Of a stretch of 64,000 bases of DNA, positions 38,443 through 60,072 are shown one piece after another. The position numbers and the translations under genes are program-made. The stretch's first letter is position 1. The number at the start of each line of letters is the position of its first letter. The notes below the pieces were generated by a model. The model did no database searches and had not been told where the DNA came from. It saw nothing but the letters and a program-made list of their open reading frames with translations. This stretch comes from a phage. The stretch is taken from sequence record PX915677.1. One strand, written 5' to 3'.

Positions 38443-38955
38443 TTATTTTATCCAGTCTCTTTCTATATAGGAGGTTGTGAGCTTACGTCTCTCTGCTTCA
38501 GTGGAGAAGATGACTACTACACTTCCTTTAGTGTTACCACTAACACTTTGCTGTGTATCTGCTCTTGTGAAACTCACACGACCACCTGTTATGAAAACAA
38601 TCTCATCAGCATGGTTTATACACTTAGTAAACCACTTAACAGAAGTATCAGCTGGTAGCAATAAAACTGTACCAACTTTAAGTTTCTTGTTTTTGATTGC
38701 CAAGTCAACCCAAGGAGTTATGTCTGAATATGGAGGATTACACCAAGTGTAAGTGTTTCTGAACTCAGAGAAATCATAGGTTAGAGAATCCATTTCCTCT
38801 GTTATATATTTTTCTAGTAGATGATTCTTGTCACTAGATGCTATATCACAGGAGAATTCAAACCTTGTGTTAAAGAAATCAAACAGCCATTTAGGGGTTT
38901 GCCATAAATCTCTAATGTCTTCTGGGGTATTACTAGATCTATAATCTGTTACCAT
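38443..38955 (-). CDS. DNA N6-adenine methyltransferase, phage Dam type
   Basis: WQTPxxLF N-terminal motif, catalytic NPPY (WCNPPYSDI), conserved LLLPADTSVKWF block. Confidence 0.8.
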   Translation of the reverse strand: MVTDYRSSNTPEDIRDLWQTPKWLFDFFNTRFEFSCDIASSDKNHLLEKYITEEMDSLTYDFSEFRNTYTWCNPPYSDITPWVDLAIKNKKLKVGTVLLLPADTSVKWFTKCINHADEIVFITGGRVSFTRADTQQSVSGNTKGSVVVIFSTEAERRKLTTSYIERDWIK

Positions 38956-47357: not shown

Positions 47358-49202
47358 TTAGTGTGTATGCATCCAGTTAAGTCCAATCTGACAATCAGAT
47401 GCCAGAGGACATTCCATATTCAGATACTCGCCAGCTTTCTTAACACAAAGCTCGGTGTGCTCTTTGAGTTTCTGTACATCATTACGGTTTACTGAGAATT
47501 GACCTTCATCGTGCATATCAATTACCTTAGCACAACGAACCTTATCTTTCTCAATCCACTTGTTAAGGAACATCATAGCATATTTCATAACAACAGCACC
47601 AGCACATTGCAGGAGTGTGTTAAGGGCTTTATGAACCATAACCTTACCAGTGGCATCCCGTCTCATTGTAATCTTACGACCATCAACTCCAATCAAGTAT
47701 CCTTGAGCAGCTTTCTCTGTCATACGATCAATGAGGATTGCAATACATGGGTTCTCTGCTAAGAAACGTGCTCGCATCACTGAACCTTCGTCAGCCCCAC
47801 CACCTACAATTGAACCAAGCTTAGCATCACCAGCACCATAGTTGAATGCGTAGATAAACGTCTTAGCGTTGTCACGAGTAGGAAGACCAGCAAGTTTCTG
47901 GTTGTGGGAGTGGATATCACCTTCAAGGAGAATATCACGATACATAATAGCAGAAGCTAAACCACGTTCTGCCAGAGCTTTCTTAGCTGGGTTGTTCTCT
48001 TCAATTGCCTCAGCAAGCATATCCCTACACTCTTTAATGAGGTAGTGAGCGAGCATACGAAGTTCAAGTCCAGAACCATCATACCCTAAGAATACTTCTT
48101 TACCAGCGGGTATGTAATATTTGTAAGCACCTATAGGTTTATCTTTCTTCCCCGGCTTACCTTTCTCGTAAATTACGTTAGTACCTTTTCGTATATAACA
48201 ACCATCAGGAACAACGTTAGTAATAACGAAAGGACGAGAGTGATCACTGTCTGAGTTATAGTCAGACTCAAACAAACTGCGACACTCGTGACCAAACAGA
48301 CCACGGGAGGGAATATTAACCACGATACGATGTTTGAATCGAAAAGTCGGCGTAGCGCAGCTGTTAGCTTCTGCCGAAAGTTTACCATCTTCGCGTTCCT
48401 TTGCTATGAGTCCACTGATAAGACCTAGCCTGTGAGCCGCTACAACGCGTCTCTTAAGCAAACTTCCGACACTCCCTAGCTCACCCCCTAACCCTTCTTC
48501 AAGAGTCTCCTCGAGGTTTGTAGGAGCTGTAGGCCACTTGTTTGATGTGGCTAGTGCTTTCTTAATCTCATCAAACGTTACAGGATTACGGCGATTAGGG
48601 TTCAACCCCAAACCAAATACGTAAGCCTTCATGTAATTCTTAGTCTTAAACCTGAAATGCTTTTCTAAGAACTTCTTAATATCAGCGTCAACCATCTCGG
48701 CTGTCTGCTTCTGCTTAGCATTGCCTCGCATCCAAGCAGTATACCATGCTTGGTATGTTCCATACTTTCTCATATCTTTCTTAATTTCGAAAGTATTCCA
48801 AGGCTTCTTAGATACGTTAAACTCTGGAGGAAGGAAGCCCTCATCCATAAGAGCTTCTTTAACTCGTGCATCTTTAGATGGGTCAAAGTCTACATATTCG
48901 ACACAGGTGAAAGCTCCACCAATATCTTCTCTCTTCAGCCCAACCCTATCACAATAGGCTTGAGGCCACTTCTGTAAAGCTCCAGACTTCTTAAACGGCT
49001 TCATATAAGTAGAGCCATCTAATCTCATCTTAGGTAAGAGAGGAATCAACTCTCTGTCAATATTAACAATAATCTCTTTAAGGAGGTGAACATACCACCG
49101 AGCATTTCTTCGGTTGAAACTCACTCCGTGCTTTGCTTGCTTAGAGATTATATCAGCGACAGTCATCTCTGTCAAAAATGGAAGAGCGTCCGGGTTGCTC
49201 AC
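47358..49202 (-). CDS. DNA polymerase, family A, polymerase domain only (614 aa)
   Basis: Motif A region LGYDGSGLELRMLAHY, motif B RDNAKTFIYAFNYGAG, motif C VIDMHDEGQF; no exonuclease motifs in this ORF. Confidence 0.85.
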   Translation of the reverse strand: MSNPDALPFLTEMTVADIISKQAKHGVSFNRRNARWYVHLLKEIIVNIDRELIPLLPKMRLDGSTYMKPFKKSGALQKWPQAYCDRVGLKREDIGGAFTCVEYVDFDPSKDARVKEALMDEGFLPPEFNVSKKPWNTFEIKKDMRKYGTYQAWYTAWMRGNAKQKQTAEMVDADIKKFLEKHFRFKTKNYMKAYVFGLGLNPNRRNPVTFDEIKKALATSNKWPTAPTNLEETLEEGLGGELGSVGSLLKRRVVAAHRLGLISGLIAKEREDGKLSAEANSCATPTFRFKHRIVVNIPSRGLFGHECRSLFESDYNSDSDHSRPFVITNVVPDGCYIRKGTNVIYEKGKPGKKDKPIGAYKYYIPAGKEVFLGYDGSGLELRMLAHYLIKECRDMLAEAIEENNPAKKALAERGLASAIMYRDILLEGDIHSHNQKLAGLPTRDNAKTFIYAFNYGAGDAKLGSIVGGGADEGSVMRARFLAENPCIAILIDRMTEKAAQGYLIGVDGRKITMRRDATGKVMVHKALNTLLQCAGAVVMKYAMMFLNKWIEKDKVRCAKVIDMHDEGQFSVNRNDVQKLKEHTELCVKKAGEYLNMECPLASDCQIGLNWMHTH

Positions 49203-49218
49203 TTTATACTCCTTTAAA

Positions 49219-49641
49219 TTATTGGTAAAGTAAATCTGTAAATGCTTGATTATCTTCTACTACATTCAGCATAGTTGCTTCATCACTATAAGCCCTAACC
49301 GTCCCATTGACAACTGTCCAAGGAGGGGGCGGAGGGGGTGTATGTGTAGCTCTGGCTTCACGAGGTTGTTCTCGTACCAGATGAGCCACTACTCTCTGAT
49401 TAGCAACCTCTTCCCTTTCTCGAATAGCTCTTTGAATGTAAGCCAGCTTCATACCCCAAGCTTCTTCAAACTCCTGAGGGTGCTTATCACTGATAACCAC
49501 ATACTGACGTTCAGGAATACCAGAGCGAATCTCTGATAATAATTCATGAAACAAATCCAGTTCATGCTCAGTGAGATTCATTTCAATATCATCCCACTTT
49601 AGAACTAGGAAACGGTTTTGGTGTCTAGCTGGTAATGGCAT
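49219..49641 (-). CDS. Hypothetical protein with poly-Pro linker
   Basis: ORF track. Confidence 0.5.
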   Translation of the reverse strand: MPLPARHQNRFLVLKWDDIEMNLTEHELDLFHELLSEIRSGIPERQYVVISDKHPQEFEEAWGMKLAYIQRAIREREEVANQRVVAHLVREQPREARATHTPPPPPPWTVVNGTVRAYSDEATMLNVVEDNQAFTDLLYQ

Positions 49642-49644
49642 AAC

Positions 49645-49929
49645 TCAACCTCTTGGGAATGGCATCAAAAATTCCACAGCAGATTTAATTTCATTATTGA
49701 TTCTTGAATCACGATAAGAGATAAACTTACCTTTACTATCACGTAACATTACATGGGTTCTGGCTGTTTTGTGAGGGAGCAATGTGATACTAGTTGGAAT
49801 GGCATCAATCCCTACAGCGTATTTGTCAATAGTCTTACTTTCAGCCAACAGATAAGACCAAGTACGCGGTTTCTGCTCCGGGCGGTTAGGGTATGTGTCC
49901 CGAATCTGAACCATAGCTAATTTATTCAT
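49645..49929 (-). CDS. Small protein, paralogue pair member A
   Basis: Shares KTARTxVxLRxxxGKFISY...AVExLxPFP with 49931..50185. Confidence 0.55.
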   Translation of the reverse strand: MNKLAMVQIRDTYPNRPEQKPRTWSYLLAESKTIDKYAVGIDAIPTSITLLPHKTARTHVMLRDSKGKFISYRDSRINNEIKSAVEFLMPFPRG

Positions 49930-49930
49930 A

Positions 49931-50185
49931 TTAAACTCCTTTAGGGAATGGGATGAGATTTTCTACTGCAACACGGAAAGATTTTTCTACGTTCTTATTC
50001 TTATAAGAAATGAATTTACCATCAGCACCACGAAGGATTACATTAGTGCGAGCTGTTTTTGGGTTAATCCCAATCATCCGTTCGATGATCTTGTTTGATT
50101 TGTTGTGGTGGTTAGTGAAAGTCCACTTAACAATCTTGCCATCTCTGGTTACATCAAAAATATTTACGATTTTTACAATAGACAT
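49931..50185 (-). CDS. Small protein, paralogue pair member B
   Basis: See 49645..49929. Confidence 0.55.
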   Translation of the reverse strand: MSIVKIVNIFDVTRDGKIVKWTFTNHHNKSNKIIERMIGINPKTARTNVILRGADGKFISYKNKNVEKSFRVAVENLIPFPKGV

Positions 50186-50220
50186 ATTTATTACCTAAGA
50201 AGTTTATTTTGGTTTATATA

Positions 50221-50248
50221 AAAGAAAAGGCCACCCATTTGGGTAGCC
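50221..50248 (-). terminator. Intrinsic terminator (minus strand)
   Basis: GGCTACCC(aaat)GGGTGGCC with one G-U pair, then TTTTCTTT on minus strand. Confidence 0.5.
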
Positions 50249-50253
50249 TCATA

Positions 50254-50571
50254 TTACGATGAGCTTAAAGCTCCTTTGCGTGCTCCAGCTGCTTTTCCAG
50301 CTCGATCACCACTTTTGCCGCCGTTTGAACGGTTTGAGCTGACTGATTCAACACGTAAGTTGCTTGACGCATTAGAGCCTCCAGACTTGACAGCTCGTTT
50401 GTGTCCAACGTCTTTACCTCTGACAGCAGCTTTTCCATCGCGCTTTTCAACGATGCGACGTGCACGGTGGCGCTGAGCATCTCCGCTCTTGCTCCCAACG
50501 CCTGTTTCACCACGGGCAATTGCGGTACGTCTTTCTTGTGCATAATCTCTCTTTCCTACATGATCTGCCAT
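50254..50571 (-). CDS. Highly basic Gly/Ser/Arg/Lys-rich low-complexity protein (105 aa)
   Basis: AAGGAG RBS 7 nt upstream; own promoter motif and terminator; resembles KGG-repeat stress proteins (weak, by eye). Confidence 0.6.
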   Translation of the reverse strand: MADHVGKRDYAQERRTAIARGETGVGSKSGDAQRHRARRIVEKRDGKAAVRGKDVGHKRAVKSGGSNASSNLRVESVSSNRSNGGKSGDRAGKAAGARKGALSSS

Positions 50572-50607
50572 TTAAAACTCCTTAATATATCAGTGTACAC
50601 TAAGGAG

Positions 50608-50616
50608 TATACATTA
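50608..50616 (-). promoter_or_regulatory. TAATGTATA promoter motif, minus orientation
   Basis: Plus strand tatacatta; 37 nt upstream of start at 50571. Confidence 0.45.
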
Positions 50617-50627
50617 TAAGTTACTGT

Positions 50628-51365
50628 TTAAGCTTTCTTTTCCATTGCTTTAACAATCGCCTTACAGAAACCAGAACGAACAATATCATCTGATTCACCA
50701 TCTACAATCTCAGCAAACTCATACAGATCGTGTTCATCAATAAAGTTAGTAGCCCAAGTTAGACCACTCTCGCGACCACGCATATCATGCTGGTTTGTAT
50801 CACCCATACAGAACAATTGAGAGGTTTCTCCCAATCGAGTCATGATGGAGAAGGCTTCATCCTTAGTTGTGTTCTGGAACTCATCAACAATAACAATAGC
50901 ATCATTGAAAGAACGACCACGGAGATATTCCAGAGGTACAAACTCAATGTTACCATTTCCGATTTGGCATTCATAGAATCCCTTACCATATCGCTGAGTA
51001 ATAACATCAATGATAGGCATCAGGTAAGGCTCAAACTTCTCACGCATTCCTCCCGGAAGTAACCCAAGAGAGTTTCCCATGCCAACCGAAGGGCGACTCA
51101 GAATGATCTTCTGAATCTTACCACTCTTCAGTGCATCGATAACCGTGGAAGTGATTACAAAGGTCTTACCACAGCCCGCAGGAGCGTCTGTGAACACAAC
51201 TTGTTTAGTCTTAATAGCATTGAGTAGCTCAGACTGAAACTGGTTCTGAGGGACTACAGGCTTTGCTAAAACCACCTCTTCATACTCTCGCTTACCTTTA
51301 CGAGTAACAAGTGCTTCCCGACGAAGGTCTTTCCGTGATTCTTTCCGTGATTGACGACGACTCAT
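50628..51365 (-). CDS. phoH: PhoH-like ATPase
   Basis: Walker A APAGCGKTF, Walker B IVIVDEFQN, size and pattern typical of phage PhoH. Confidence 0.7.
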   Translation of the reverse strand: MSRRQSRKESRKDLRREALVTRKGKREYEEVVLAKPVVPQNQFQSELLNAIKTKQVVFTDAPAGCGKTFVITSTVIDALKSGKIQKIILSRPSVGMGNSLGLLPGGMREKFEPYLMPIIDVITQRYGKGFYECQIGNGNIEFVPLEYLRGRSFNDAIVIVDEFQNTTKDEAFSIMTRLGETSQLFCMGDTNQHDMRGRESGLTWATNFIDEHDLYEFAEIVDGESDDIVRSGFCKAIVKAMEKKA

Positions 51366-51547
51366 TTACGCTCTCCAATTTCTTCGTAATGACACTCAGT
51401 AGTTAAGCAGTCTTTACAGATTGCTGTATAAACCCTGACGTTAGTAAATCGTTTGTTCTTCCCTTTGGTTGGAGAGCCTTTGGCAAGCTCTCTGATAACC
51501 TTGTTACTTAAGTGAAGGTTTGTTCCTTCACATTTAGAGCACTTCAT
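51362..51547 (-). CDS. Small zinc-ribbon protein
   Basis: CSKCEG ... CKDC pairs. Confidence 0.5.
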   Translation of the reverse strand: MKCSKCEGTNLHLSNKVIRELAKGSPTKGKNKRFTNVRVYTAICKDCLTTECHYEEIGERK

Positions 51548-51863
51548 GGTTCATATCTTTATGAATCCTGTAAACAGCTGTCGCCATACAAGCAACAGCC
51601 TCGTTGTGTGGGAGGTGCATCCCTGTAGAACCATCCCAATCTTTGAACTCATTGTCAAAGACTCCGGTAGGCTCTGGATATAGAGCTTGCAGCTCCACTA
51701 GATCATTAGCAACTTGTTGCCATTTATCATCAGACCAGATAGGGTCATCCAACCAGTAATACAAATAGGAATGGATGATCAATTGCCTTCTATGCCGATT
51801 TATTACTTCAGCGGGACTTATCTCACTTCCATTTGAAGTCCTAAATGTATTACTGTCAATCAT
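51534..51863 (-). CDS. Hypothetical protein with segment resembling NAD-dependent ligase domain Ia
   Basis: HSYLYYWLDDPIWSDDKWQQVANDLVEL compared by eye with LigA N-terminus [28 protein letters not shown]. Confidence 0.45.
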   Translation of the reverse strand: MIDSNTFRTSNGSEISPAEVINRHRRQLIIHSYLYYWLDDPIWSDDKWQQVANDLVELQALYPEPTGVFDNEFKDWDGSTGMHLPHNEAVACMATAVYRIHKDMNHEVL

Positions 51864-52114
51864 TTTACAACCTTAAATTTGAATGTTGTTGGGTGGTAAT
51901 AGTGCAATCTATTGATAGTGTGCTTTGTTTCAAGGTATATCCTGCAAGAGTGGCACATGACATGGGTCAGACCAGTTACAGGGTTAGGTTTGAAGTTGGC
52001 GACAGGCTTCTCTTTCTTACAGAAGCTACAGACTTTCTTTTCCATCTTTTCTCCAGTGGTCAACGAATTGCTGAAACACTTTATGGTCGAATGTGAAACC
52101 GCGAGCAATCCCAC
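51860..52114 (-). CDS. Small zinc-finger protein (true start probably internal)
   Basis: CSFC...CHSC pairs; ORF-track start overlaps neighbouring gene. Confidence 0.45.
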   Translation of the reverse strand: MGLLAVSHSTIKCFSNSLTTGEKMEKKVCSFCKKEKPVANFKPNPVTGLTHVMCHSCRIYLETKHTINRLHYYHPTTFKFKVVK

Positions 52115-52259
52115 ATTCTACGAAAGTAGAAGGCATATAGTCTACATCATCTTTAGATGTATGACCATAAACTTGAATAAGCTTTTTAATCTTATCCTTC
52201 TCTCTTCGAGGAAGCATCCTAAATGCCTCCTGAATATCTGTAATATGTTTGATTTTCAT
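52026..52259 (-). CDS. Hypothetical small protein
   Basis: ORF track; AGGAA RBS. Confidence 0.5.
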   Translation of the reverse strand: MKIKHITDIQEAFRMLPRREKDKIKKLIQVYGHTSKDDVDYMPSTFVECGIARGFTFDHKVFQQFVDHWRKDGKESL

Positions 52260-52271
52260 CAGAAATTCCTG

Positions 52272-52406
52272 CTAATCCTCTGGATTATGAGAACAGCAAT
52301 ACTCACATACCCCGCAACATGGACAAATTTCTACACTTGGGTCATATGCATCATCCACTGTCATTCCGCACTTGGTACAGAACACGTCGTCATCTTCTTC
52401 CAACAT
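52272..52406 (-). CDS. Cys-rich mini-protein (44 aa), below ORF-track cutoff
   Basis: TAATG stop-start coupling with upstream gene; MLEEDDDVFCTKCGMTVDDAYDPSVEICPCCGVCEYCCSHNPED. Confidence 0.4.
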   Translation of the reverse strand: MLEEDDDVFCTKCGMTVDDAYDPSVEICPCCGVCEYCCSHNPED

Positions 52407-52654
52407 TAATTCTCCAAACAAGAATCATTCATCAGTAGCTCCAAACTATCAAGTGTGTAGTAATAACCAAAGAATGGGGCTGTTGACTTGGAAACCTTTT
52501 TATCAAAAAGAGATTGAGAAAGATTTATTTCTACTCCAGCATCTTCAAGCTGTTGTTTTGTAGGGTAGTCAGTGAAAGAGCAAAGTACTTCTCTGTCCTC
52601 CCCTCTGTCCGTTTCTTCGACACGACTCAGAATCCAAATACTTTTACTAGCCAT
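52406..52654 (-). CDS. Hypothetical small protein (start moved to MASKSIW)
   Basis: GGAGAG RBS; sits 2 nt after ThyX stop. Confidence 0.45.
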   Translation of the reverse strand: MASKSIWILSRVEETDRGEDREVLCSFTDYPTKQQLEDAGVEINLSQSLFDKKVSKSTAPFFGYYYTLDSLELLMNDSCLEN

Positions 52655-52656
52655 TT

Positions 52657-53313
52657 TTAACTCTCCACAGTTTTCTTCAGAGCTGCCCATGAGATTGGGT
52701 AGAGTTTAGCCATCTCTTCATCCAGAGATTTAGCAAACACTCGAACTTCATATTGAGCGTGAGATGAGAGTCGCTGACGACACAACTCAAACCAGCCATA
52801 CAAAGAACCAGTCCACACCCACTCAGTGATCATCCCCTGAGGAAGAACAAATCGAGCTTGCTCTGGTGCAATAAATTCAATCAACTTGTCATATGCTGCT
52901 AGAGAAGCTTCATATGCATCGTTAATCAGCATTAATGCTTCAGCTCGCTCTCCGTTGATGAGTTGAATCCCTGAACCTGCATGGAGGTCCGAAGGTCTCG
53001 CAAAAATCTCTTTAGGGATGAAGACTTCAACTGCTCCATCTTTATACCGCCGGGACATTTCGTTCCACGAGAATCCAACCTGATGCTTCTGTAGTTGACG
53101 AGCGATTGCAATTGGAGCCTTACAACGAAAGGACACTTGTGGGTGACGGAACGGAGTGCAGTGTTTCTCTCTAGCCAAGAAGTTAATCAGCCTAGTATCA
53201 CGATCATTCAAATCACCCTCTCGTACAACACCAAAAGAAACTCTTGCAGCATTAACAACAGTTTTATCACTGCCCATAGCTTCAATCAATGTTGCTTGCA
53301 ATTGTTCATTCAT
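52657..53313 (-). CDS. thyX: ThyX-like (flavin-dependent thymidylate synthase family) protein with altered signature motif
   Basis: VNAARVSFG, TPFRHPQVSF, KAPIAIARQL, SHAQYEV blocks align with ThyX; signature position reads KHQ-x8-S where ThyX has RHR-x7-S. Confidence 0.65.
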   Translation of the reverse strand: MNEQLQATLIEAMGSDKTVVNAARVSFGVVREGDLNDRDTRLINFLAREKHCTPFRHPQVSFRCKAPIAIARQLQKHQVGFSWNEMSRRYKDGAVEVFIPKEIFARPSDLHAGSGIQLINGERAEALMLINDAYEASLAAYDKLIEFIAPEQARFVLPQGMITEWVWTGSLYGWFELCRQRLSSHAQYEVRVFAKSLDEEMAKLYPISWAALKKTVES

Positions 53314-53785
53314 ACTTCAACTTCTCCTTGTTATAAGCAATCTCTGCTTCCTCTGGAGTATGGAAAGTTCCTAAATGCTTAGTCTTTCCGTTAACTCCGA
53401 TTATAGCTCTGAATTTTGTACCACTAGCCGTCTCTCTGATGTAAACACCCATTGGAAGTTTTCCAGCTTTTCCGGCTCTATTGTATTGTTTTCTGTTATG
53501 ACAGTTTGTAGATGGGTCAACATCTCTTAGGTTTTTAAGAGAGTCATCCAGTTTAATCTGGTTGATGTGATCAATCTCAAACTCAGGCATCTTTCCATAA
53601 GAGAAAAACCAAGCTAATCGACATGCTCTGTAAGATTTCCCTTCATAATAGATGTACCTGTAACCTAATGTTGAGACACACCCAGCAATGTTCCCTGATA
53701 CTCTCCTACCTTTGGTATTCTTCCACCTAAAGATTCCAGTATCAGGGTCATATGCTAAGTCTTCTTTTATCTTATCAGTTAACAC
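53306..53785 (-). CDS. HNH homing endonuclease with AP2-type domain
   Basis: FEIDHINQIKLDDSLKNLRDVDPSTNCHN plus AP2-like C-terminus. Confidence 0.7.
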   Translation of the reverse strand: MLTDKIKEDLAYDPDTGIFRWKNTKGRRVSGNIAGCVSTLGYRYIYYEGKSYRACRLAWFFSYGKMPEFEIDHINQIKLDDSLKNLRDVDPSTNCHNRKQYNRAGKAGKLPMGVYIRETASGTKFRAIIGVNGKTKHLGTFHTPEEAEIAYNKEKLKYE

Positions 53786-54050
53786 CTAAAGCTGTATCCA
53801 AAAATGCTTTCAGGTTTGCTTCAGTCTGCATACCAGAGAGGCTGTAATGTGTTCCACTGTTACGGTCAGGTACAACAAAAGCAGGGATGCTTCGTACACC
53901 ATACTTAACAGCTTGTTCACGACCATCACCTTCAAGGATGTTAATCTCTTCCACTTCTACATCAAACTCCTTAACAACCTTCTCAAAGGTAGGAGCCATT
54001 GCTTTACATGGAGCACACTGATCACTATAAAACTTAATTACTTTAGGCAT
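53775..54050 (-). CDS. Thioredoxin-fold protein (CxxC = CAPC)
   Basis: KFYSDQCAPCKAMAP near N-terminus, about 90 aa. Confidence 0.65.
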   Translation of the reverse strand: MPKVIKFYSDQCAPCKAMAPTFEKVVKEFDVEVEEINILEGDGREQAVKYGVRSIPAFVVPDRNSGTHYSLSGMQTEANLKAFLDTALGVN

Positions 54051-54058
54051 GTAAATCC

Positions 54059-54238
54059 TTATGCAGTCAGGAGGTGAAGCAGGAATGGGATAACAACAGC
54101 TACGATAACCATGATAGTTGATGCTGTTTGAATCTCACCTTTCTTATCAGGAGTTTCTTCAATAAGCTTACCAGAAGCCCAATAAATACCACCACCAATA
54201 AAGATAGCCCAAATACCCCATACGATTGCTGATAACAT
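54059..54238 (-). CDS. Small two-TM membrane protein (59 aa), below ORF-track cutoff
   Basis: AAGGA RBS; MLSAIVWGIWAIFIGGGIYWASGKLIEETPDKKGEIQTASTIMVIVAVVIPFLLHLLTA. Confidence 0.35.
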   Translation of the reverse strand: MLSAIVWGIWAIFIGGGIYWASGKLIEETPDKKGEIQTASTIMVIVAVVIPFLLHLLTA

Positions 54239-54298
54239 ATATCTATATCCTTATAAATAAGTTCGCCCCACCTCGGGTTAGGAGACAGGGCGGAGGTT

Positions 54299-54862
54299 TT
54301 AGTAAGACACGTCACCACTTGAATGGGACATGTTGCTCTTGACGAAGTAGCAATACTTGCCAAGACCTTCATTAATTTCTTGAAGCATACTCTGATCGAC
54401 AGGGTAAGTGGCTAAATCGCCATCAAACTCATCCATCTTCTCAATAATACACATCAAGGTCATGCACATATCAGAGAGCATACCGTCCATGTCTAGATCA
54501 GCATTACCCTCTGAGAACCAAGCGTGGGATAGGTAGTTAGCTGCTGTAGCATCCACTTTAACACAGTGGTATCGCATACGTTCAGCAATACGATCTCCTA
54601 CTTGTCGTGCGTAATCTTCCAGCTCATCAAACATACCATGAACACCCTGAAATCCTGCACCAGAAACGTTCCAGTGGTAGTTCTTAGCTTTGATATGCAA
54701 GAGTTCCATGTTAGCTTGTAAGCAGCTCAGGATGTGTTCTAGGCTGTTTGCACTAATCATGCCTTGCATTGTTTCAAGGCGAGAGATTGAAAGCTCAGAC
54801 CGGTCTAACATACTATAACTGTCACGACCAATCTCAGGTAAATCAAAGACATTCTTATGCAT
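54299..54862 (-). CDS. Dps/ferritin-like protein (start moved to Met with GGAGAA RBS)
   Basis: NYHWNVSGAGFQGVHGMFDE matches Dps ferroxidase-site region (E. coli Dps AHWNMRGANFIAVHEMLDG, from memory). Confidence 0.55.
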   Translation of the reverse strand: MHKNVFDLPEIGRDSYSMLDRSELSISRLETMQGMISANSLEHILSCLQANMELLHIKAKNYHWNVSGAGFQGVHGMFDELEDYARQVGDRIAERMRYHCVKVDATAANYLSHAWFSEGNADLDMDGMLSDMCMTLMCIIEKMDEFDGDLATYPVDQSMLQEINEGLGKYCYFVKSNMSHSSGDVSY

Positions 54863-55184
54863 TTGGGTTTTCTCCATCAAGTTCAACTGAGTTAGCAACA
54901 TTACGTGCAATATTATCCATTACCTGCTGGGTAATTACGATGCAGTTCTGTGGGTCTACTGACTTAGAACGCCCCATTTCAGGGTCATACACCTTAACTC
55001 GCTTAGCAGTTGAACCTGTGACCTGAAGAACCTTCAACAGATATCCCTGATTACCAATAGACCAAGCAACAACATCACGATTCTTGATAAAGCGACCAAG
55101 CATATCACGATGATAAAACTGTTGCATCACCTTGGATTTTGTAATCTCTTCAGTGGGCGGGGCCACTTTACTCAAATCTAACAT
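54855..55184 (-). CDS. Hypothetical protein (109 aa)
   Basis: ORF track; AAATGTATA variant motif about 45 nt upstream. Confidence 0.5.
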   Translation of the reverse strand: MLDLSKVAPPTEEITKSKVMQQFYHRDMLGRFIKNRDVVAWSIGNQGYLLKVLQVTGSTAKRVKVYDPEMGRSKSVDPQNCIVITQQVMDNIARNVANSVELDGENPNA

Positions 55185-55256
55185 AACTCTCTCCTGTAAA
55201 ATACAAATTCTTATTGTACTCTATATACATTTGAGAGTTATCATATCTACTACCAA

Positions 55257-55466
55257 TCAGTAGTAAATTACTTTAGACATAAAAGAACCAGTGTTAGGGT
55301 CTTCATACCAGCGATGTATGTCAGCGCTTTTTACTATTGTGCCCAGAGTCTTCAACTGTTTCTTAGCAATACGAGCCTCTTTGCGAGTGTCAAACAATTT
55401 GATGTTATCTTTTCTCATGTGTTGCTCAAGATTCCAAACAACATGAATAGCCCACATCTTTTTCAT
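55257..55466 (-). CDS. Small protein, member 3 of tandem triplicated family
   Basis: Shared TRxxARxxKK core and C-terminal SKV(I/Y)Y. Confidence 0.55.
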   Translation of the reverse strand: MKKMWAIHVVWNLEQHMRKDNIKLFDTRKEARIAKKQLKTLGTIVKSADIHRWYEDPNTGSFMSKVIYY

Positions 55467-55675
55467 TAGTAATGTACCTTTCCGCTAATATAAACACGAC
55501 CAGAGGAATACTCTCTGGCCTTATGAATACTGATGCTCTTGATCATATCCATATTAAACATAGATTTTTTAAAATCTCGAGCTTGTTGGCGAGTGGGTAG
55601 TGCAGTCATAGTCATGCCACCTGATGCCCACTTAATCTTTGCTAACCAAAATTGTCTCATGGTGATTGGTCTCAT
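55466..55675 (-). CDS. Small protein, member 2 of tandem triplicated family
   Basis: Shared core, C-terminal GKVHY. Confidence 0.55.
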   Translation of the reverse strand: MRPITMRQFWLAKIKWASGGMTMTALPTRQQARDFKKSMFNMDMIKSISIHKAREYSSGRVYISGKVHY

Positions 55676-55872
55676 TAATAATAAACCTTACTGTTAACAC
55701 AAAAAGCACCTTCACTATTCACGATAGCTTTTCCTAGTGTAACCTTATTAAGTCTAAAAGTAGATTTGTATTGATTTTTGACCCTACGTGCGTGCTCTCG
55801 AGTCTTAACAAAATCTACAGCTACTAACTCTCCAGTCGTGTTGTCATGTACACGAACAATCCACTTTTTCAT
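55675..55872 (-). CDS. Small protein, member 1 of tandem triplicated family
   Basis: Shared core, C-terminal SKVYY; translationally coupled to dcd. Confidence 0.55.
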   Translation of the reverse strand: MKKWIVRVHDNTTGELVAVDFVKTREHARRVKNQYKSTFRLNKVTLGKAIVNSEGAFCVNSKVYY

Positions 55873-56406
55873 TTACACACCTTTAGATGCAACCACACCT
55901 TCAGAGTTATTATAACGACCCTTCACTGCGTAGGAATGTTCCCCTGCATGAGAGTGCTCAAACATAACCATTTGACCAACACGCATACCAGCACGAACTC
56001 GTAAGCTGTGGTGCTTGGTTACGTTATGGAATTCAAATGTCAGCTTACTGCTATTAAATCCTGCATCTGCCCAACCGGCGTGAAGGTGGTTCAAACCACA
56101 ACGAGCCATAGACGAACGCAAAACAAACAGGCTTGAGATGTTATCTGGAAGGTTAAACTCCTCCATAGAGTGAGCCAAGAAGAACTGACCCGGAGTGATA
56201 ACCAAACCCTCTTCAGGAATCTTTACTTCCTTCCACTGAAGATTCTCTTTCGCATCAATATCAACGATGCCATCAGCCTGTTCTTCAACAAGGATAGTAT
56301 CACCAATACGGATATCCACACTAGCAGCGTTAACATATTTATGCTCCGCATCCAGATAACCATTGTCAATTACATCGTGCAGTTCAATACTTCCTAGTAA
56401 ACCCAT
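55873..56406 (-). CDS. dcd: dCTP deaminase family protein
   Basis: NAASVDIRIG and GWADAGFNSSKLTFEFHN match Dcd-family motifs. Confidence 0.75.
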   Translation of the reverse strand: MGLLGSIELHDVIDNGYLDAEHKYVNAASVDIRIGDTILVEEQADGIVDIDAKENLQWKEVKIPEEGLVITPGQFFLAHSMEEFNLPDNISSLFVLRSSMARCGLNHLHAGWADAGFNSSKLTFEFHNVTKHHSLRVRAGMRVGQMVMFEHSHAGEHSYAVKGRYNNSEGVVASKGV

Positions 56407-56415
56407 TCTTATTCC

Positions 56416-57729
56416 TTAGTTATTTTCGTCTATTTCAAAAGAGATTCCACGACCCGCTTCATCGGCAAACCGAACTGTACGGGTTTGAGGCTGCAACACT
56501 TCAGGGTTGTTGGCAACAAATTGATCAGCGAGACTATCTCCCAAATCCTGTTCCATATCTTCATCAGTCCACACAGCCCTAACAGGTGCGTTGATATCAC
56601 CAACAGCGAAACCCTGACCAGAGAACTGACGTGCGCTAACAGTTAAGCCGTTTGGTCGACCACGAGAGGGTCTAGCCATCCATCGCTCCATAGAATCACT
56701 TGTAATACCAAGAGCTTCTTCAAAAGATGTTCTACGAGTAGGGCTTTCTCTTCGTGACTCTTGTGCTCGACGCATTGCAGGGGCTACAAACACCCCTTCA
56801 ATTGCATTGTGTCGGTTAGGTTCCTCTTCTCGACCAAGCAGATCACCACCCGTGTTAGTCGTTAAATTTGTCAACCCCTCAGACCAATACGCATGAATCT
56901 GACCAGAACCGTGAAGACTAGACATAATCTGAATCTCTTCATAAGGGATTCCAAAGAATCGACTCATGTCTCGGTTAACACAATATAGAGCACTTGTTGT
57001 ATCTTCAATAAGAGAAACCTGACCTAATCCATTGACTAGATGACTAACTGGCTGAGGTGTGGGAAGATATCGAGTTTGGGCCATGTATTGATGCGCAACT
57101 GCTGGAGAGGAAAATCTCAACACTTGTGAGTTAGGCCACTTCTTGTGAACATACCTGATTTCACGACTAGAAACAACCACTGGACAAGGGGAAGTCATAG
57201 CCAAATATCCGTGAGAAGTCATGAATAAGTTGTCAAGAGTCATCGCACCACGGCACATCATAGGAAAATTATCCAATACCTCTTCAATAGAAGTAGGATA
57301 ATTAAACATGAATTGGATACGAACCCCATTCCACTGAAACTCAATAATATCAGTGAATGTTAATTGAGAACCCCCAGCATAGGATTCGTTTGTAGCTTCA
57401 GCAAGAAGTGATGCATATTCAATATCTTGTGACTCTAGCCATTCCTTCACATTACTTTCAATCTCCCGTCCAAGCTCTTGCCAACGATCAGTTGGGATGA
57501 AAGTGTTTTGAGTTCTTGGTGTTTGTCCTCTGACAATAAAGATATCAATGTCATGTGGAGCTATGTTATTAAGGACAGCATCACGAACAGCCCCACCAGT
57601 AATGATGGGACAGATACCATCTGGAATCAAGTTGTTGTTAATCAACTGTTCAATGAAGTGACGACCAACAGTGATATCAGGTTGTTGAGCAACCTTATCT
57701 TCAATTTGGTTAATCGGGATAACAATCAT
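56416..57729 (-). CDS. Pol-beta superfamily nucleotidyltransferase with CCA-enzyme/poly(A)-polymerase-like head motif
   Basis: ITGGAVRDAVLNNIAPHDIDIF (GGxVRD ... DxD); remainder lacks recognisable CCA-enzyme neck/body motifs; Arg-rich C-terminal region; start moved to ATG 57729. Confidence 0.6.
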   Translation of the reverse strand: MIVIPINQIEDKVAQQPDITVGRHFIEQLINNNLIPDGICPIITGGAVRDAVLNNIAPHDIDIFIVRGQTPRTQNTFIPTDRWQELGREIESNVKEWLESQDIEYASLLAEATNESYAGGSQLTFTDIIEFQWNGVRIQFMFNYPTSIEEVLDNFPMMCRGAMTLDNLFMTSHGYLAMTSPCPVVVSSREIRYVHKKWPNSQVLRFSSPAVAHQYMAQTRYLPTPQPVSHLVNGLGQVSLIEDTTSALYCVNRDMSRFFGIPYEEIQIMSSLHGSGQIHAYWSEGLTNLTTNTGGDLLGREEEPNRHNAIEGVFVAPAMRRAQESRRESPTRRTSFEEALGITSDSMERWMARPSRGRPNGLTVSARQFSGQGFAVGDINAPVRAVWTDEDMEQDLGDSLADQFVANNPEVLQPQTRTVRFADEAGRGISFEIDENN

Positions 57730-57730
57730 T

Positions 57731-58288
57731 TTACATTTTCCAATATAATGAAGGTGGGTCGTAAGGGTCAAATCCCGTGAGTTCACACAAGAAAAGATAA
57801 ACCTTAACAGTCAAGTTAACGTCCTGTTCACAATAAGTAAACATATCTTCAGTGAAAGCATCCCATGCTTCCTCTTGCTCACCGTAGTCACCTTTAAGTT
57901 CCTCTAAGAACTCACCCCATTGCTTCAAGCCGTGACCTCTTGGGCCACGTCTAGGGTCGCCTTTCGGATACTCAGGACTGTCGCCAATACGGTCAGGTTT
58001 AAGATATCGACTAAGACATAAAGTGTCAAAGACGTTAAAATTATATTTAATCAAAGAGGGATACATCTTCTTCAGAGCAGGTAAGTCGAAGTCAATAATA
58101 TTATGACCCACTAGTACATCTGCTTCTGTCAGTTTACGAATCCCGTCTTCAATTTGGTGAGGCCGATAGCCCCACCTTTCACCAGTTTCAACATCGAAGA
58201 TATAAATACACCATACTTTAGTTATGTCATCGTACAGTGCATTACTCTCGATATCGAATGCAAACACTTTCTTCTTTTTCTTTACCAC
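57731..58288 (-). CDS. Stand-alone DEDD (DnaQ-like) 3-prime to 5-prime exonuclease
   Basis: Exo I FAFDIESN, Exo [12 protein letters not shown], Exo III YCEQDV. Confidence 0.8.
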
Positions 58289-60072
58289 GGTGAAGCTCCA
58301 TCTGCTTGGTTGACGAGAGAAGCTGCATCCTCTCCGTTAGTTAAAACGAATGGATTATCTTCATCAACTTCAAAGTCTTCCCTTTCTACAAGTCTACCGG
58401 TTTCGCTGATATACTTAGTATAACAGACACCTGTCTGACCGTAGTTACGTTCTTTCAGTAATCGAATGACTGAGAGGTTCTTAGCTAAGCCGTCAGCTTG
58501 CTTATCACGCTCAAAGCCAATGATACACTGACACCAACGCATAAGAGAACGAGAGCCAGTGAACTGTACTTCACGTACCTGTCCACCTTCTTCATGAGGA
58601 GCACCACCTGCCGGAGCATTAAGGTGAGATAACACGAAAGCGGTAAAGTCTAATTCTTTACACATACCAGCAAGCTCGGAAGCAATCTTACTGATTTCAG
58701 TGTTAATCTCTGAAGGTGTTAAATGAGATACCAGAGCGGTAATGTTATCAAGGATGATGAACTTACACTGGTTTTCAACTACCCAGAAACGGATACACTG
58801 TTTAATGTCTTCCCATTCATTCTGTCCGAAGTTGTCATACAAGAAGAATTTGTCTGCATAACGAAGTGCTTCATTACGCAAATCTTCCTCGTCATATTCA
58901 ACATCAGGTCGGTGGAAAGGAATTGATGCTGACTTACCAGCAATGTTCTTAACAGACATGCCTACCTTCTCTTCCAAGAAGAAGCCACCTCCATTAAAAC
59001 CATGCTCTAAGCACAGATGAGCAACCAGCTCGTGAGCAATGAGTGTTTTACCACTCCCTACTCCACCACCAATTGCTACCACCTCTCCCCATCGAATACC
59101 GAAGGTCATCTCATTCAGAGTCTTCCACGGATACGGGATACCCCACTCCGCTTTCTTCAGAGCATCATCAAGACAATCAAAGATTGTTACAGCACCAGCA
59201 GGAGATTCCCGCTTTGCTGAATACTTGAGAATGTTGAATAACTCTTGACCACGACCAGACAGAAGCATGTCATTCGCATCCTTAATCTCTTTCTCCACAC
59301 CGTTGTATGGGAAGGTTCCTTTAGGAATACGAGCAAACTTGACATGAGGGAATAAAGAACGACCTTTTGTTAAAGCTATCTCACCTGCATCATCGTTGTC
59401 CATGCAGAGCACAACCTCCTCAAAACCATTTACGAAGTCTCGGTTACGAGACAACACAGAAGAGATTGAACCTGCACCGAACGGTAAAGAAACACATGCT
59501 GGTTTAATGTTTGTTGCATTTGTAAAAGCTGTAAGGACATGGAAACCTGACATACAGGATAGCGGGTCTTCAAAAATGAAGAGCTTCTTGTTGTACACAT
59601 CTCCACGTTGAGCTTGTGCCATACCAAACAAATCTGCTTCTTTCACACTGCCGACGTAATAGAACTTCTTACTATCTAGCAGCTTAACCTCGTACCCGAC
59701 AATGTTTCCATCACGTTCACGAGGAAAGAAGTAACTGTCTGGTGTCTGACCATCAGTTTGACTCAGACCAATGCGACACTCAAACCGCTCTGATACAGCT
59801 TTAGGGATTAAACGGCGAGTGAGTTCACCCTGAGGAAGCTCTAAGCAATCATCTAAGACTTCTCTCAACTCTTCAGGGGATAACTCTTTCTTCTCGTTTG
59901 GAGTAGGTGTAGTGCCCTTTTCGAACACTTCGTAATTCCCACAACGGTTACAACTTCCCCACTCCTCACCAGTCTCTTCGTTACGGAAGAGAATCATGTG
60001 GTTGTGGGTTTTATCACGACCATGAGAGATACATTCCTTACAACCTGTGTCTCCCAAAATGATCTTTGACAT
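58282..60072 (-). CDS. Primase-helicase (T7 gp4-like)
   Basis: N-terminal Cys4 zinc finger, TOPRIM-like acidic motifs (EDPLS, DNDDAGE), DnaB-type Walker [10 protein letters not shown] and Walker B IILDNI. Confidence 0.85.

What the first reader, a model, noticed from the sequence alone, without database searches (positions are those of the whole stretch)
57731..58288. Proofreading exonuclease encoded separately from the family A DNA polymerase
Seen: DEDD exonuclease motifs are in a 185-aa ORF coupled to the primase-helicase gene, while the polymerase ORF (47358..49202), about 8.5 kb away, has motifs A/B/C but no Exo motifs. A split arrangement is less common than the fused T7-type enzyme.
Basis: seen in the sequence. 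Interest (0 to 1): 0.4.

Follow-up and report, generated by a model that had tools for sequence, protein, structure and literature searches.

The report
Split phage DNA polymerase: separate proofreader

Summary
ORF 57731..58288 (-) encodes a 185-aa DEDDy 3'-5' exonuclease: D12/E14, D68 and Y152/D156 correspond to T7 gp5 D5/E7, D65 and Y170/D174. Its GTG start overlaps the primase/helicase stop (GTGGTAA). The 614-aa family A polymerase ORF (47358..49202, -) lies 8,528 nt downstream. It has motifs A, B and C and no exonuclease domain. Joined end to end, the two proteins are colinear with T7 gp5 residues 1-704, and the break falls in the inter-domain linker (gp5 ~205/206).

The exo gene is functional. 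Its catalytic residues are invariant in 42 standalone homologues, dN/dS is 0.015-0.095, and an AlphaFold2 model (pLDDT 94) matches the T7 gp5 exo domain best.

The window is a Kuravirus, ~96% identical to SU10 and ShigP1. The split is already on record. The phiEco32 RefSeq note says the polymerase lacks both exonuclease domains. PMC3517423 (2012) and PMC9965538 (2023) state the separation explicitly. Many GenBank records and PHROG families name the gene "DNA polymerase exonuclease subunit".

The same helicase-exo...pol layout occurs in Grimontviridae, in Bruynoghevirus and on metagenomic contigs, with gaps from 1.9 kb to over 10 kb. Physical association of the two proteins is inferred and was not tested. 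Verdict: real, already known, low interest.

The parts
57731..58288 (-). Standalone 3'-5' proofreading exonuclease gene (185 aa, DEDDy), the N-terminal third of a T7-gp5-type polymerase
   Evidence: ORF. Pfam PF01612 at 2e-8 and PHROG 403/38876 'DNA polymerase exonuclease subunit'. Aligns to T7 gp5 residues 3-178. AF2 pLDDT 94.1 with T7 gp5 as top fold hits. dN/dS 0.015-0.095.
58247..58255 (-). Exo I motif, codons D12-I13-E14 (equivalent to T7 D5, E7)
   Evidence: D12 and E14 are invariant in 42 homologues.
58085..58105 (-). Exo II motif HNIIDFD (D68, equivalent to T7 D65)
   Evidence: H62, N63 and D68 are invariant.
57821..57835 (-). Exo III motif YCEQD (Y152 and D156, equivalent to T7 Y170 and D174)
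   Evidence: D156 is invariant and Y152 is at least 90% conserved.
58282..58299 (-). Gene junction GGAGCTTCACCGTGGTAA: a Shine-Dalgarno-like GGAG, a 7-nt spacer, then the exo GTG start overlapping the primase/helicase TAA stop
   Evidence: The same 7-nt overlap occurs in SU10, ShigP1, Bas89, SU7 and EK010. Overlaps of 1-29 nt occur in BUCT695, Ps1.PMD, L005, L007 and L021.
58282..60072 (-). T7 gp4-like primase/helicase gene immediately upstream of the exo
   Evidence: PHROG 239 at 1e-175; Pfam DnaB_C and a weak Toprim_2 hit.
47358..49202 (-). Exo-less family A DNA polymerase gene (614 aa), corresponding to T7 gp5 residues ~206-704
   Evidence: Pfam PF00476 at 2.5e-23 and PHROG 17 positions 836-1233. 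Aligns to T7 gp5. AF2 pLDDT 90.6 with T7 gp5 as top fold hits. AAAGGAG Shine-Dalgarno before the GTG; relatives have ATG at the same position.
48057..48083 (-). Polymerase motif A YDGSGLELR (D375, equivalent to T7 D475)
   Evidence: D375 and E380 are invariant in 45 homologues.
47835..47876 (-). Polymerase motif B RDNAKTFIYAFNYG (R443, K447, Y451, equivalent to T7 R518, K522, Y526)
   Evidence: These residues are invariant.
47499..47516 (-). Polymerase motif C MHDEGQ (H564, D565, E566, equivalent to T7 H653, D654, E655)
   Evidence: These residues are invariant.
49203..57730 (-). 8,528-nt block between the two halves. It holds the nucleotidyltransferase, dCTP deaminase, Dps/ferritin-like protein, thioredoxin, HNH endonuclease, ThyX, Nlig-Ia domain protein, PhoH and many small ORFs.
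   Evidence: SU10 and ShigP1 annotation.
38949..39791 (-). Separately encoded 5'-3' exonuclease (FEN-like), the third Pol I-type activity. It is also a separate gene in T7 (gp6).
   Evidence: PHROG 107 at 1e-64. The Pfam 5_3_exonuc_N hit is below threshold at 5.8e-7. PMC9965538 lists it as a separate subunit.
53775..54050 (-). Phage-encoded thioredoxin (91 aa, CAPC motif), a candidate processivity partner of the polymerase by analogy with T7 gp5 and host thioredoxin
   Evidence: Pfam Thioredoxin at 1.9e-13. The hypothesis was published for the related phage Privateer. The polymerase keeps a shortened TBD-like segment.

Best explanation
The 185-aa protein is the detached 3'-5' proofreading exonuclease domain of a T7-gp5-type family A DNA polymerase. 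The 614-aa protein is the remainder of that enzyme (thumb, palm and fingers).

[quoted passage not shown] Nucleotide-metabolism and accessory genes then accumulated between the two halves: 1.9 kb in Bruynoghevirus, 8.5 kb here, and more than 10 kb in some relatives.

In the infected cell the two proteins most likely re-associate non-covalently through the old intramolecular exo-pol interface. This would reconstitute a gp5-like holoenzyme that shuttles a mismatched primer end from the polymerase site to the DEDDy two-metal exonuclease site. That holoenzyme would then work with the gp4-like primase/helicase, and possibly with the phage's own thioredoxin.

Shown here: homology, colinearity, intact catalytic residues, purifying selection, conserved synteny, and co-occurrence with an exo-less polymerase.

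Inferred, not shown: physical association, exonuclease activity, and a contribution to fidelity.
For: - Colinearity. The exo matches fused-polymerase profile PHROG 17 at positions 667-826 and the pol at 836-1233. Concatenated exo+pol aligns end to end with T7 gp5 1-704, with the junction at gp5 ~205/206.
- Catalytic residues. All five DEDDy residues are present. D12, E14, D68 and D156 are invariant and Y152 is at least 90% conserved across 42 standalone homologues with 31-80% identity to the window protein.
- Selection. dN/dS is 0.015-0.095.
- Structure. The exo AF2 model has pLDDT 94.1. Its top 27 Foldseek hits are all the T7 gp5 exo domain (E ~3e-11), followed by other PolA and PolB proofreading domains.
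- The polymerase needs a partner. Its only Pfam hit is PF00476. Its AF2 model (pLDDT 90.6) matches T7 polymerase. Its 114 closest listed cluster representatives carry at most PF00476 and no exo domain. They include LUZ24-like 'DNA polymerase part II'.
- Co-occurrence and synteny. Helicase, overlapping exo, then pol is seen in SU10, ShigP1, BUCT695, Ps1.PMD, L021 and L022. Exo and pol hits share identical longest-contig lengths in six cases.
- Literature. PMC10201439 reports that PolAs require the exo domain structurally. It also reports that AlphaFold2 predicts the split S-SBP1 exo and pol to re-form a Syn5-like enzyme. PMC9965538 and PMC3517423 describe the separate genes in this group and interpret the exo as the proofreading activity.
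Against: - No direct evidence of a complex. Complex prediction was not possible with the tools, and no biochemical study of a Kuravirus or LUZ24-type exo-pol pair was found.
- The exo is translationally coupled to the primase/helicase and not to the polymerase. Two intergenic terminator-like hairpins (54292..54264 and 50250..50227) lie between exo and pol. The two halves may therefore be expressed from different units and in different amounts.
- The polymerase carries three sizeable insertions relative to gp5 (roughly residues 165-255, 330-372 and 388-415). Their effect on the old exo-docking surface is unknown.
Confidence: 0.85

Rival explanations
1. The exo protein has become an autonomous nuclease that no longer partners with the polymerase. 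It might process DNA ends, degrade host DNA, remove primers or act in recombination, either alone or docked on the primase/helicase. In that case the polymerase would replicate without intrinsic proofreading.
For: - The start codon overlaps the primase/helicase stop, and this adjacency holds across every lineage examined. The distance to the polymerase is free to vary from 1.9 kb to more than 10 kb.
- Terminator-like hairpins lie between the exo and pol genes.
Against: - The helicase-exo adjacency is simply the ancestral T7 gene order (gp4 then gp5), because the exo is the 5' part of gp5.
- The exo co-occurs with an exo-less PolA in every complete genome examined.
- PolAs are reported to need the exo domain for stability (PMC10201439).
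- The closest structural relatives are polymerase-embedded proofreading domains, not standalone DNases.
Confidence: 0.08
2. The 185-aa protein is an RNase of the DEDD superfamily (RNase D, RNase T or oligoribonuclease-like) and not a DNA proofreader.
For: - There is a weak Pfam hit to RNase_H_2 (PF13482, E 1.2e-4, just above threshold).
- The neighbouring gene is a CCA-adding-type nucleotidyltransferase, which hints at RNA metabolism.
Against: - PF13482 is a generic RNase H-superfamily model. The stronger hit is DNA_pol_A_exo1.
- The only PDB sequence hits are T7 DNA polymerase.
- In the fold search no RNase appears among the 50 hits listed. A diDNase, TREX1/2 and Exo I rank far below the polymerase exo domains.
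- Motif III is Yx3D (DEDDy, polymerase type), not the Hx4D of DEDDh enzymes.
- No HRDC or other RNase D domain is present in 185 aa.
Confidence: 0.02
3. The two ORFs are re-joined into one polypeptide or one mRNA, by programmed frameshifting, trans-splicing or a split intein. Alternatively, the split is an assembly artefact or a pseudogene.
For: - The exo ORF is in the -1 frame relative to the primase/helicase and overlaps it by 7 nt.
- Polymerase genes of relatives do carry intervening elements. The BUCT695 pol is interrupted by an endonuclease gene, and the Bas89 pol CDS is joined from two pieces.
Against: - 8.5 kb holding over 20 conserved, independently annotated genes separates the halves.
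- The exo and pol lengths account exactly for gp5 residues 1-205 and 206-704, leaving no residues for intein halves.
- Both ORFs have their own Shine-Dalgarno sequence and start codon.
- There is no slippery heptamer at the helicase/exo junction, and the overlap length varies (1, 7, 17 and 29 nt) among relatives.
- The arrangement is identical in over 100 independently sequenced genomes under purifying selection.
Confidence: 0.01

Closest known systems
phiEco32 / SU10 / YF01 (Kuravirus, Gordonclarkvirinae) separately encoded polymerase and 3'-5' exonuclease (e.g. SU10_075 + SU10_051; YF01 gp70 + gp49; phiEco32 phi32_53)
   Same: These are the same genes. The exo is 99% identical in protein to SU10_075, and the region is ~96% identical in nucleotides. 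Gene order and the 7-nt overlap with the primase/helicase match, and the gap is about 8.3-8.6 kb. [quoted passage not shown] The phiEco32 RefSeq note says the polymerase lacks both exonuclease domains.
   Different: Nothing of substance differs. The window carries an HNH endonuclease between thyX and thioredoxin, which ShigP1 has and SU10 lacks.
LUZ24-like Pseudomonas phages (Bruynoghevirus: LUZ24, PaP3, tf) 'DNA polymerase part I / part II'
   Same: The replication module is homologous and syntenic: amidoligase/GATase, GGACT, primase/helicase, overlapping exo, small genes, pol, 5'-3' exo. The polymerase is 39-42% identical over 99% of its length. The break lies in the same linker, with shared flanking sequence signatures. 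PMC3517423 explicitly equates the two cases.
   Different: The gap between the halves is only 1.9 kb (7 small genes) against 8.5 kb here. The polymerase is shorter, at 545 aa.
S-SBP1 / S-SRP01-type T7-like cyanophages with exo/pol gene fission (Czernecki et al., NAR 2023, PMC10201439)
   Same: This is a T7-type PolA split into an exo gene and a pol gene in the inter-domain linker (gp5 ~200 there, ~205 here). AlphaFold2 predicts re-association of the two products. The TBD region is shortened.
   Different: The two genes are adjacent and overlap by 40 nt. They arose by a recent frameshift, and the exo is not fused to the end of the helicase gene. The junction-flanking sequences are not shared with the Kuravirus/Bruynoghevirus type, which suggests an independent fission.
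Bacteriophage T7 gp5 DNA polymerase (fused exo+pol) with gp4 primase/helicase and host thioredoxin
   Same: The exo has the same fold and catalytic residues, and the polymerase has the same motifs A, B and C, including the T7-type Tyr in motif B. The gene order helicase then exo-end of the polymerase matches.
   Different: T7 gp5 is a single 704-aa polypeptide. The TBD here is shortened, and the phage carries its own thioredoxin. The polymerase half has three insertions relative to gp5.
E. coli Pol III core (alpha polymerase + epsilon DnaQ proofreader)
   Same: This is a functional analogy only: polymerase and DEDD proofreader are separate polypeptides that must associate (established knowledge).
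   Different: It belongs to a different polymerase family (C). Epsilon is DEDDh, whereas the window protein is DEDDy. There is no homology in the docking mode.

Membership tests
Family A polymerase-type DEDDy 3'-5' exonuclease (Pfam PF01612 DNA_pol_A_exo1) | Exo I (DxE), Exo II (Nx2-3[F/Y]D) and Exo III (Yx3D) motifs with all five catalytic residues | tested here: met
   D12/E14, N63..D68 and Y152..D156 align with T7 D5/E7, D65 and Y170/D174. They are invariant or at least 90% conserved in 42 homologues.
Family A polymerase-type DEDDy 3'-5' exonuclease (Pfam PF01612 DNA_pol_A_exo1) | Profile match above the curated gathering score | tested here: met
   34.7 bits against a 23.6-bit cut-off, E 2e-8, covering profile positions 18-168 of 173.
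Family A polymerase-type DEDDy 3'-5' exonuclease (Pfam PF01612 DNA_pol_A_exo1) | RNase H-like (DnaQ) alpha/beta fold closest to polymerase proofreading domains | tested here: met
   AF2 model with pLDDT 94.1. The top 27 Foldseek PDB hits are the T7 gp5 exo domain, with query-normalised TM 0.60-0.73.
Family A polymerase-type DEDDy 3'-5' exonuclease (Pfam PF01612 DNA_pol_A_exo1) | 3'-5' exonuclease activity on DNA primer termini | not testable with these tools
   This needs an enzyme assay.
T7-like family A DNA polymerase (cluster #5 of PMC10201439) | Motifs A, B and C with catalytic Asp/Glu, and a Tyr at the motif B position equivalent to T7 Y526 | tested here: met
   D375/E380, R443/K447/Y451 and H564/D565/E566 are present. 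They are invariant in 45 homologues. The cluster #5 Tyr is described.
T7-like family A DNA polymerase (cluster #5 of PMC10201439) | Closest sequence and structure relatives are T7 gp5 | tested here: met
   PDB phmmer E 1.2e-32 to T7 gp5 against 1.5e-6 to Klenow. Foldseek E 6e-26 to T7 gp5 against ~1e-15 to Bst/Taq.
T7-like family A DNA polymerase (cluster #5 of PMC10201439) | Full thioredoxin-binding domain (gp5 residues 262-338) and use of thioredoxin as processivity factor | tested here: inconclusive
   A homologous but shortened segment is present (pol ~59-110 against gp5 ~264-338). The phage encodes its own thioredoxin. Binding is not testable here.
Split (two-gene) PolA: 'DNA polymerase exonuclease subunit' (PHROG 403 / 38876) plus exo-less pol | Standalone exo ORF matching the subunit family | tested here: met
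   PHROG 38876 at E 4e-76 and PHROG 403 at E 1.7e-38. All 65 homologues found in the 5.8-billion collection are standalone, at 101-247 aa.
Split (two-gene) PolA: 'DNA polymerase exonuclease subunit' (PHROG 403 / 38876) plus exo-less pol | Polymerase ORF in the same genome lacks the exo domain and begins where the exo ORF ends on the fused-enzyme coordinate | tested here: met
   The junction is at gp5 205/206. There is no PF01612 hit in the polymerase. PHROG 17 coordinates are 667-826 for exo and 836-1233 for pol.
Split (two-gene) PolA: 'DNA polymerase exonuclease subunit' (PHROG 403 / 38876) plus exo-less pol | The two products form a complex | not testable with these tools
   Only single-chain prediction was available. 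A complex was predicted for the S-SBP1 analogues in PMC10201439.
DEDDh proofreaders and RNases (Pol III epsilon, RNase T, oligoribonuclease) | Motif III of the Hx4D type | tested here: not met
   Motif III is YCEQD, i.e. Yx3D. No such protein appears among the PDB sequence hits.
RNase D (DEDDy RNase) | DEDDy domain followed by HRDC domain(s), with closest relatives being RNase D | tested here: not met
   The 185-aa protein has no room for HRDC and no HRDC hit. No RNase D appears among the 50 top fold matches listed.
Split-intein 'fractured gene' | N- and C-intein halves at the break | tested here: not met
   The exo C-terminus and pol N-terminus abut on gp5 coordinates with no surplus residues.

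The most novel reading that the evidence does not exclude
The dispersed split may be more than a passive gene fission.

The exo gene is locked to the end of the primase/helicase gene in every lineage examined, while its distance to the polymerase drifts from 1.9 kb to more than 10 kb and terminator-like hairpins intervene. So exo dosage may be set by the helicase and not by the polymerase. The exo could then act as a replisome-level, exchangeable proofreading subunit, analogous to epsilon in Pol III. That would allow fidelity to be tuned independently of polymerase amount.

A weaker version is better supported. The Kuravirus/Grimontviridae/Bruynoghevirus split looks like a single ancient fission, independent of and much older than the S-SBP1 cyanophage fission that was reported in 2023 as the first in PolAs.
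Probability: 0.1. Interest if true: 0.4.

Novelty: already known. Interest (0 to 1): 0.12.

Why it matters
It matters little for discovery. The arrangement is a documented hallmark of phiEco32-like, LUZ24-like and related podophages, and annotation pipelines already label the gene.

Its residual value is as a natural model for three questions:
- How a family A polymerase tolerates detachment of its proofreading domain.
- Whether fidelity can be regulated by subunit stoichiometry.
- How gene fission followed by accretion of intervening genes reshapes a replication module.

The comparison made here also shows that exo/pol fission in PolAs is older and more widespread than the 'first time' claim for cyanophages in 2023 implies. 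The layout is shared across three taxa, the linker breakpoint is the same, and the gap grows from 1.9 kb to more than 10 kb.

Tried and rejected
- **Cryptic exo motifs in the polymerase ORF.** The regex hits D49-R-E51 and Y103-VDF-D107 are isolated. They align to the gp5 thumb/TBD region and sit in a helical or TBD-like part of the AF2 model, not in a DnaQ fold. Rejected.
- **Alternative exo start at GTG V8**, which would give MFAFDIES, like T7 MIVSDIEA. Relatives keep the upstream start, EK010 has ATG there, and a GGAG lies 7 nt upstream. The annotated start is kept.
- **Programmed -1 frameshift fusing helicase and exo.** There is no slippery site, and the overlap length varies among relatives. 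Rejected.
- **Split intein or trans-splicing.** No surplus residues exist at the junction. Rejected.
- **56-nt overlap of exo with the nucleotidyltransferase ORF.** This is an artefact of longest-ORF calling. The PHROG profile begins at residue 20, and the real ATG is at 57729.
- **The primary phiEco32 paper** (Savalia 2008, PMC2587145) is not held. I relied on its citation in PMC3517423 and on the RefSeq note.
- **Literature searches for biochemical characterisation** of a two-gene phage PolA found none. One search failed on term syntax.
- **Complex prediction of exo+pol** could not be run.
- **Breakpoint position as a test of independent fissions** is uninformative. All lineages break in the same linker, at gp5 200-208. 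Only the flanking sequence signatures distinguish them.
Full report
**What the window is**

The 13-kb stretch spanning both genes is 94-97% identical in nucleotides to over 60 Escherichia and Shigella podophages of the genus Kuravirus (Gordonclarkvirinae). These include vB_EcoP_SU10, ShigP1 and phiEco32. All genes in the 38-64 kb part of the window lie on the minus strand.

**Checking the observation**

ORF 57731..58288 (-) encodes 185 aa. It matches the following:
- Pfam DNA_pol_A_exo1 above the gathering score (E 2e-8).
- PHROG families 38876 and 403, both named 'DNA polymerase exonuclease subunit' (E 4e-76 and 1.7e-38).

Its only sequence hits in the PDB are T7 DNA polymerase, residues 3-178 (E 1e-11). 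The catalytic residues map as follows:

| Motif | Window protein | T7 gp5 |
|---|---|---|
| Exo I (FDIES) | D12, E14 | D5, E7 |
| Exo II (HNIIDFD) | D68 | D65 |
| Exo III (YCEQD) | Y152, D156 | Y170, D174 |

The GTG start at 58288 overlaps the TAA stop of the gp4-like primase/helicase ORF 58282..60072 (GTGGTAA), and a GGAG lies 7 nt upstream.

The polymerase ORF 47358..49202 (-; 614 aa) has an AAAGGAG Shine-Dalgarno sequence. It carries motif A (D375), motif B (R443, K447, Y451) and motif C (D565, E566). Its only Pfam hit is DNA_pol_A. The gap from the exo stop to the pol start is 8,528 nt.

**The two ORFs are the two halves of one ancestral gene**

Against the fused-polymerase profile PHROG 17, the exo covers positions 667-826 and the pol covers 836-1233. 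A global alignment of exo+pol with T7 gp5 is colinear from residue 1 to 704. In a multiple alignment the last exo residue falls at gp5 ~205 and the first pol residue at ~206, in the linker between the exonuclease and polymerase domains.

No residues are left over for an intein, and no exo fold is hidden in the polymerase. The polymerase AF2 model (pLDDT 90.6) begins with the long helices that follow the exo domain in gp5, and it matches T7 polymerase best (E 6e-26). Relative to gp5 the polymerase has three insertions (about residues 165-255, 330-372 and 388-415) and a shortened thioredoxin-binding-domain segment.

**The exo gene is functional**

- All 65 homologues found in the 5.8-billion-protein collection are standalone proteins of 101-247 aa. 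Many lie on phage-sized contigs of 40-115 kb.
- In an alignment of 42 of them (31-80% identity to the window protein), D12, E14, D68 and D156 are invariant and Y152 is at least 90% conserved.
- Against diverged relatives (Bas89, SU7, EK010), dN/dS is 0.015-0.095 wherever dS is not saturated.
- The AF2 model is confident (pLDDT 94.1, pTM 0.89).
- Its top 27 PDB fold matches are all the exonuclease domain of T7 gp5. Other PolA and PolB proofreading domains follow. A diDNase, TREX1/2 and Exo I rank much lower, and no RNase appears among the 50 hits listed.

**How widespread and how old the arrangement is**

The order primase/helicase, then an exo overlapping its end, then other genes, then pol, recurs in several groups:

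| Genome or contig | Group | Exo-to-pol gap |
|---|---|---|
| SU10, ShigP1 | Kuravirus | 8.6 and 8.3 kb |
| Aeromonas phage BUCT695 | Grimontviridae | 6.2 kb (pol further interrupted by an endonuclease gene) |
| Pseudomonas phage Ps1.PMD | Bruynoghevirus, LUZ24-like | 1.9 kb |
| L021 | metagenomic contig | 8.3 kb |
| L022 | metagenomic contig | 4.6 kb |
| L005, L007 | metagenomic contigs | more than 10 kb |

The upstream amidoligase/GATase and GGACT genes and the downstream dCTP deaminase and ThyX genes are also shared. The whole replication module is therefore homologous.

The polymerase's 114 closest listed cluster representatives carry at most PF00476 and no exo domain. They include LUZ24-like 'DNA polymerase part II'. 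Exo and pol hits share identical longest-contig lengths in six cases.

Adjacent, overlapping exo and pol genes also exist, in a metagenomic contig (L011) and in cyanophage S-SRP01.

In T7 the order is gene 4 then gene 5, and the exo is the 5' part of gene 5. The simplest history is therefore a fission in the linker, with the exo half left in place and later accretion of genes between the halves. This is inference.

The Kuravirus, BUCT695 and Bruynoghevirus proteins share distinctive sequences on both sides of the break, and the cyanophage pair lacks them. This suggests at least two independent fissions, but I did not build a rooted tree.

**Is the split rarer than the fused form?**

An exhaustive search of 1.84 billion representatives found 2,766 relatives (E ≤ 1e-3). 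Of the best 150:
- 82 are at least 550 aa, with the match at their N-terminus. These are fused PolAs.
- 36 are 250 aa or less.
- The rest are intermediate and probably include fragments.

The split form is the minority, but it is common.

**What is already known**

- The phiEco32 reference record annotates its polymerase as 'lacks 5'-3' and 3'-5' exonuclease domains'.
- PMC3517423 (2012) states that polymerase and proofreading 3'-exonuclease are separate genes in all LUZ24-group phages. It adds that a similar organisation was reported for phiEco32 by Savalia et al. 2008. That primary paper is not held.
- PMC9965538 (2023) states that Kuravirus-like phages separately encode the polymerase, the 5'-3' exonuclease and the 3'-5' exonuclease. 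[quoted passage not shown]
- Many GenBank records label the gene 'DNA polymerase exonuclease subunit' or 'exonuclease'.
- PMC10201439 (NAR 2023) analysed adjacent exo/pol fission in S-SBP1-like cyanophages. It predicted re-association of the products with AlphaFold2 and noted that PolAs need the exo domain for stability. It called this the first such observation in PolAs, which the earlier phage-genome literature contradicts.

I found no biochemical study of any two-gene phage PolA.

**Mechanism**

The most likely mechanism (confidence 0.85) is that the 21-kDa exo and the 70-kDa pol re-associate non-covalently through the former intramolecular interface. This would form a gp5-like proofreading replicase that works with the gp4-like primase/helicase.

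Shown here: homology, colinearity, intact and conserved catalytic residues, purifying selection, synteny and co-occurrence.

Inferred, not shown: complex formation, activity and effect on fidelity.

Points that leave room for a rival, in which the exo is an autonomous or helicase-associated nuclease (0.08):
- The exo is translationally coupled to the helicase and not to the polymerase.
- Two intergenic terminator-like hairpins lie between the halves.

The RNase reading (0.02) and the re-joining or artefact readings (0.01) are contradicted by the data above.

**Verdict**

It is already known and routinely annotated for this phage group. Interest is low (0.12).

Noticed in passing
window 49147..49175 (- strand), inside the 5' end of the polymerase ORF: This is the only perfect sigma-70 consensus promoter in the 64-kb window: TTGACA-17-TATAAT with an extended -10 TG (0.03 expected by chance). 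It lies within codons 10-20 of the polymerase gene and would start RNA downstream of the pol start codon. The extended -10 TGATATAAT is conserved in SU10, phiEco32, Bas89, 4E8 and PAS59. The -35 is perfect only in the phiEco32/SU10/window subgroup. Its function is unknown.
   Followed up: partly
window 51534..51863 (-): The 109-aa protein annotated 'NAD-dependent DNA ligase' in SU10, ShigP1 and the YF01 paper is only a standalone Nlig-Ia (NAD+-binding Ia) domain (PF22745, E 2e-35). It is far too short to be a ligase, so the annotation is probably misleading.
   Followed up: partly
window 53306..53785 (-): A free-standing HNH_3 endonuclease gene sits between thyX and the thioredoxin gene. It is present in the window and in ShigP1 but absent from SU10, where thyX and thioredoxin are adjacent. 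This looks like a presence/absence polymorphism of a homing endonuclease.
   Followed up: partly
window 53775..54050 (-) and pol residues ~59-110 (window ~48873..49028): The phage encodes its own thioredoxin (91 aa, CAPC motif). The polymerase retains a shortened homologue of the T7 thioredoxin-binding domain. A phage Trx-polymerase processivity pairing has been hypothesised for the related phage Privateer.
   Followed up: partly
window 58282..58380 (-), C-terminus of the primase/helicase: The primase/helicase ends in an acidic tail with a terminal aromatic residue (...[32 protein letters not shown]). This is reminiscent of the acidic, Phe-terminated C-terminal tail of T7 gp4 that docks on gp5. 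The T7 comparison is from my own knowledge.
   Followed up: no
window 56416..57786 (-): The longest-ORF call for the CCA-adding-type nucleotidyltransferase overlaps the exo gene by 56 nt. However, the PHROG 12715 profile starts at residue 20, and an ATG at 57729 follows the exo stop with one base between. The real gene is most likely 56416..57729 (437 aa), as annotated in ShigP1.
   Followed up: yes
window 55257..55872 (-): Three tandem small ORFs (69, 69 and 65 aa) at 55257..55466, 55466..55675 and 55675..55872 abut one another. All end in V-[I/H/Y]-Y and have no Pfam family. They look like a tandem paralogue array, and SU10 has four small genes here.
   Followed up: no
window 49645..50185 (-): Two adjacent small ORFs (94 and 84 aa) share the pattern '...TART.V.LR...GKFISY.......AVE.L.PFP.G'. 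They appear to be tandem paralogues of unknown function.
   Followed up: no
L004 26705..29174 (BUCT695) and L018 (Bas89 pol CDS): Polymerase genes of relatives carry further interruptions. The BUCT695 pol is split into gp072 and gp074 by an endonuclease gene (gp073). The Bas89 pol CDS is annotated as joined from two pieces spanning 2,625 nt. PMC3517423 mentions an intron in the LUZ24 pol. In the window the pol gene is uninterrupted.
   Followed up: no
window 54264..54292 and 50227..50250 (- strand): Two intergenic GC-rich hairpins followed by T-rich tails (terminator-like) lie between the exo and pol genes. The two halves of the polymerase may therefore belong to different transcription units.
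   Followed up: no
literature (PMC10201439 vs PMC3517423): [quoted passage not shown] The same organisation was noted for the LUZ24 group and phiEco32 in 2012, citing a 2008 paper.
   Followed up: yes
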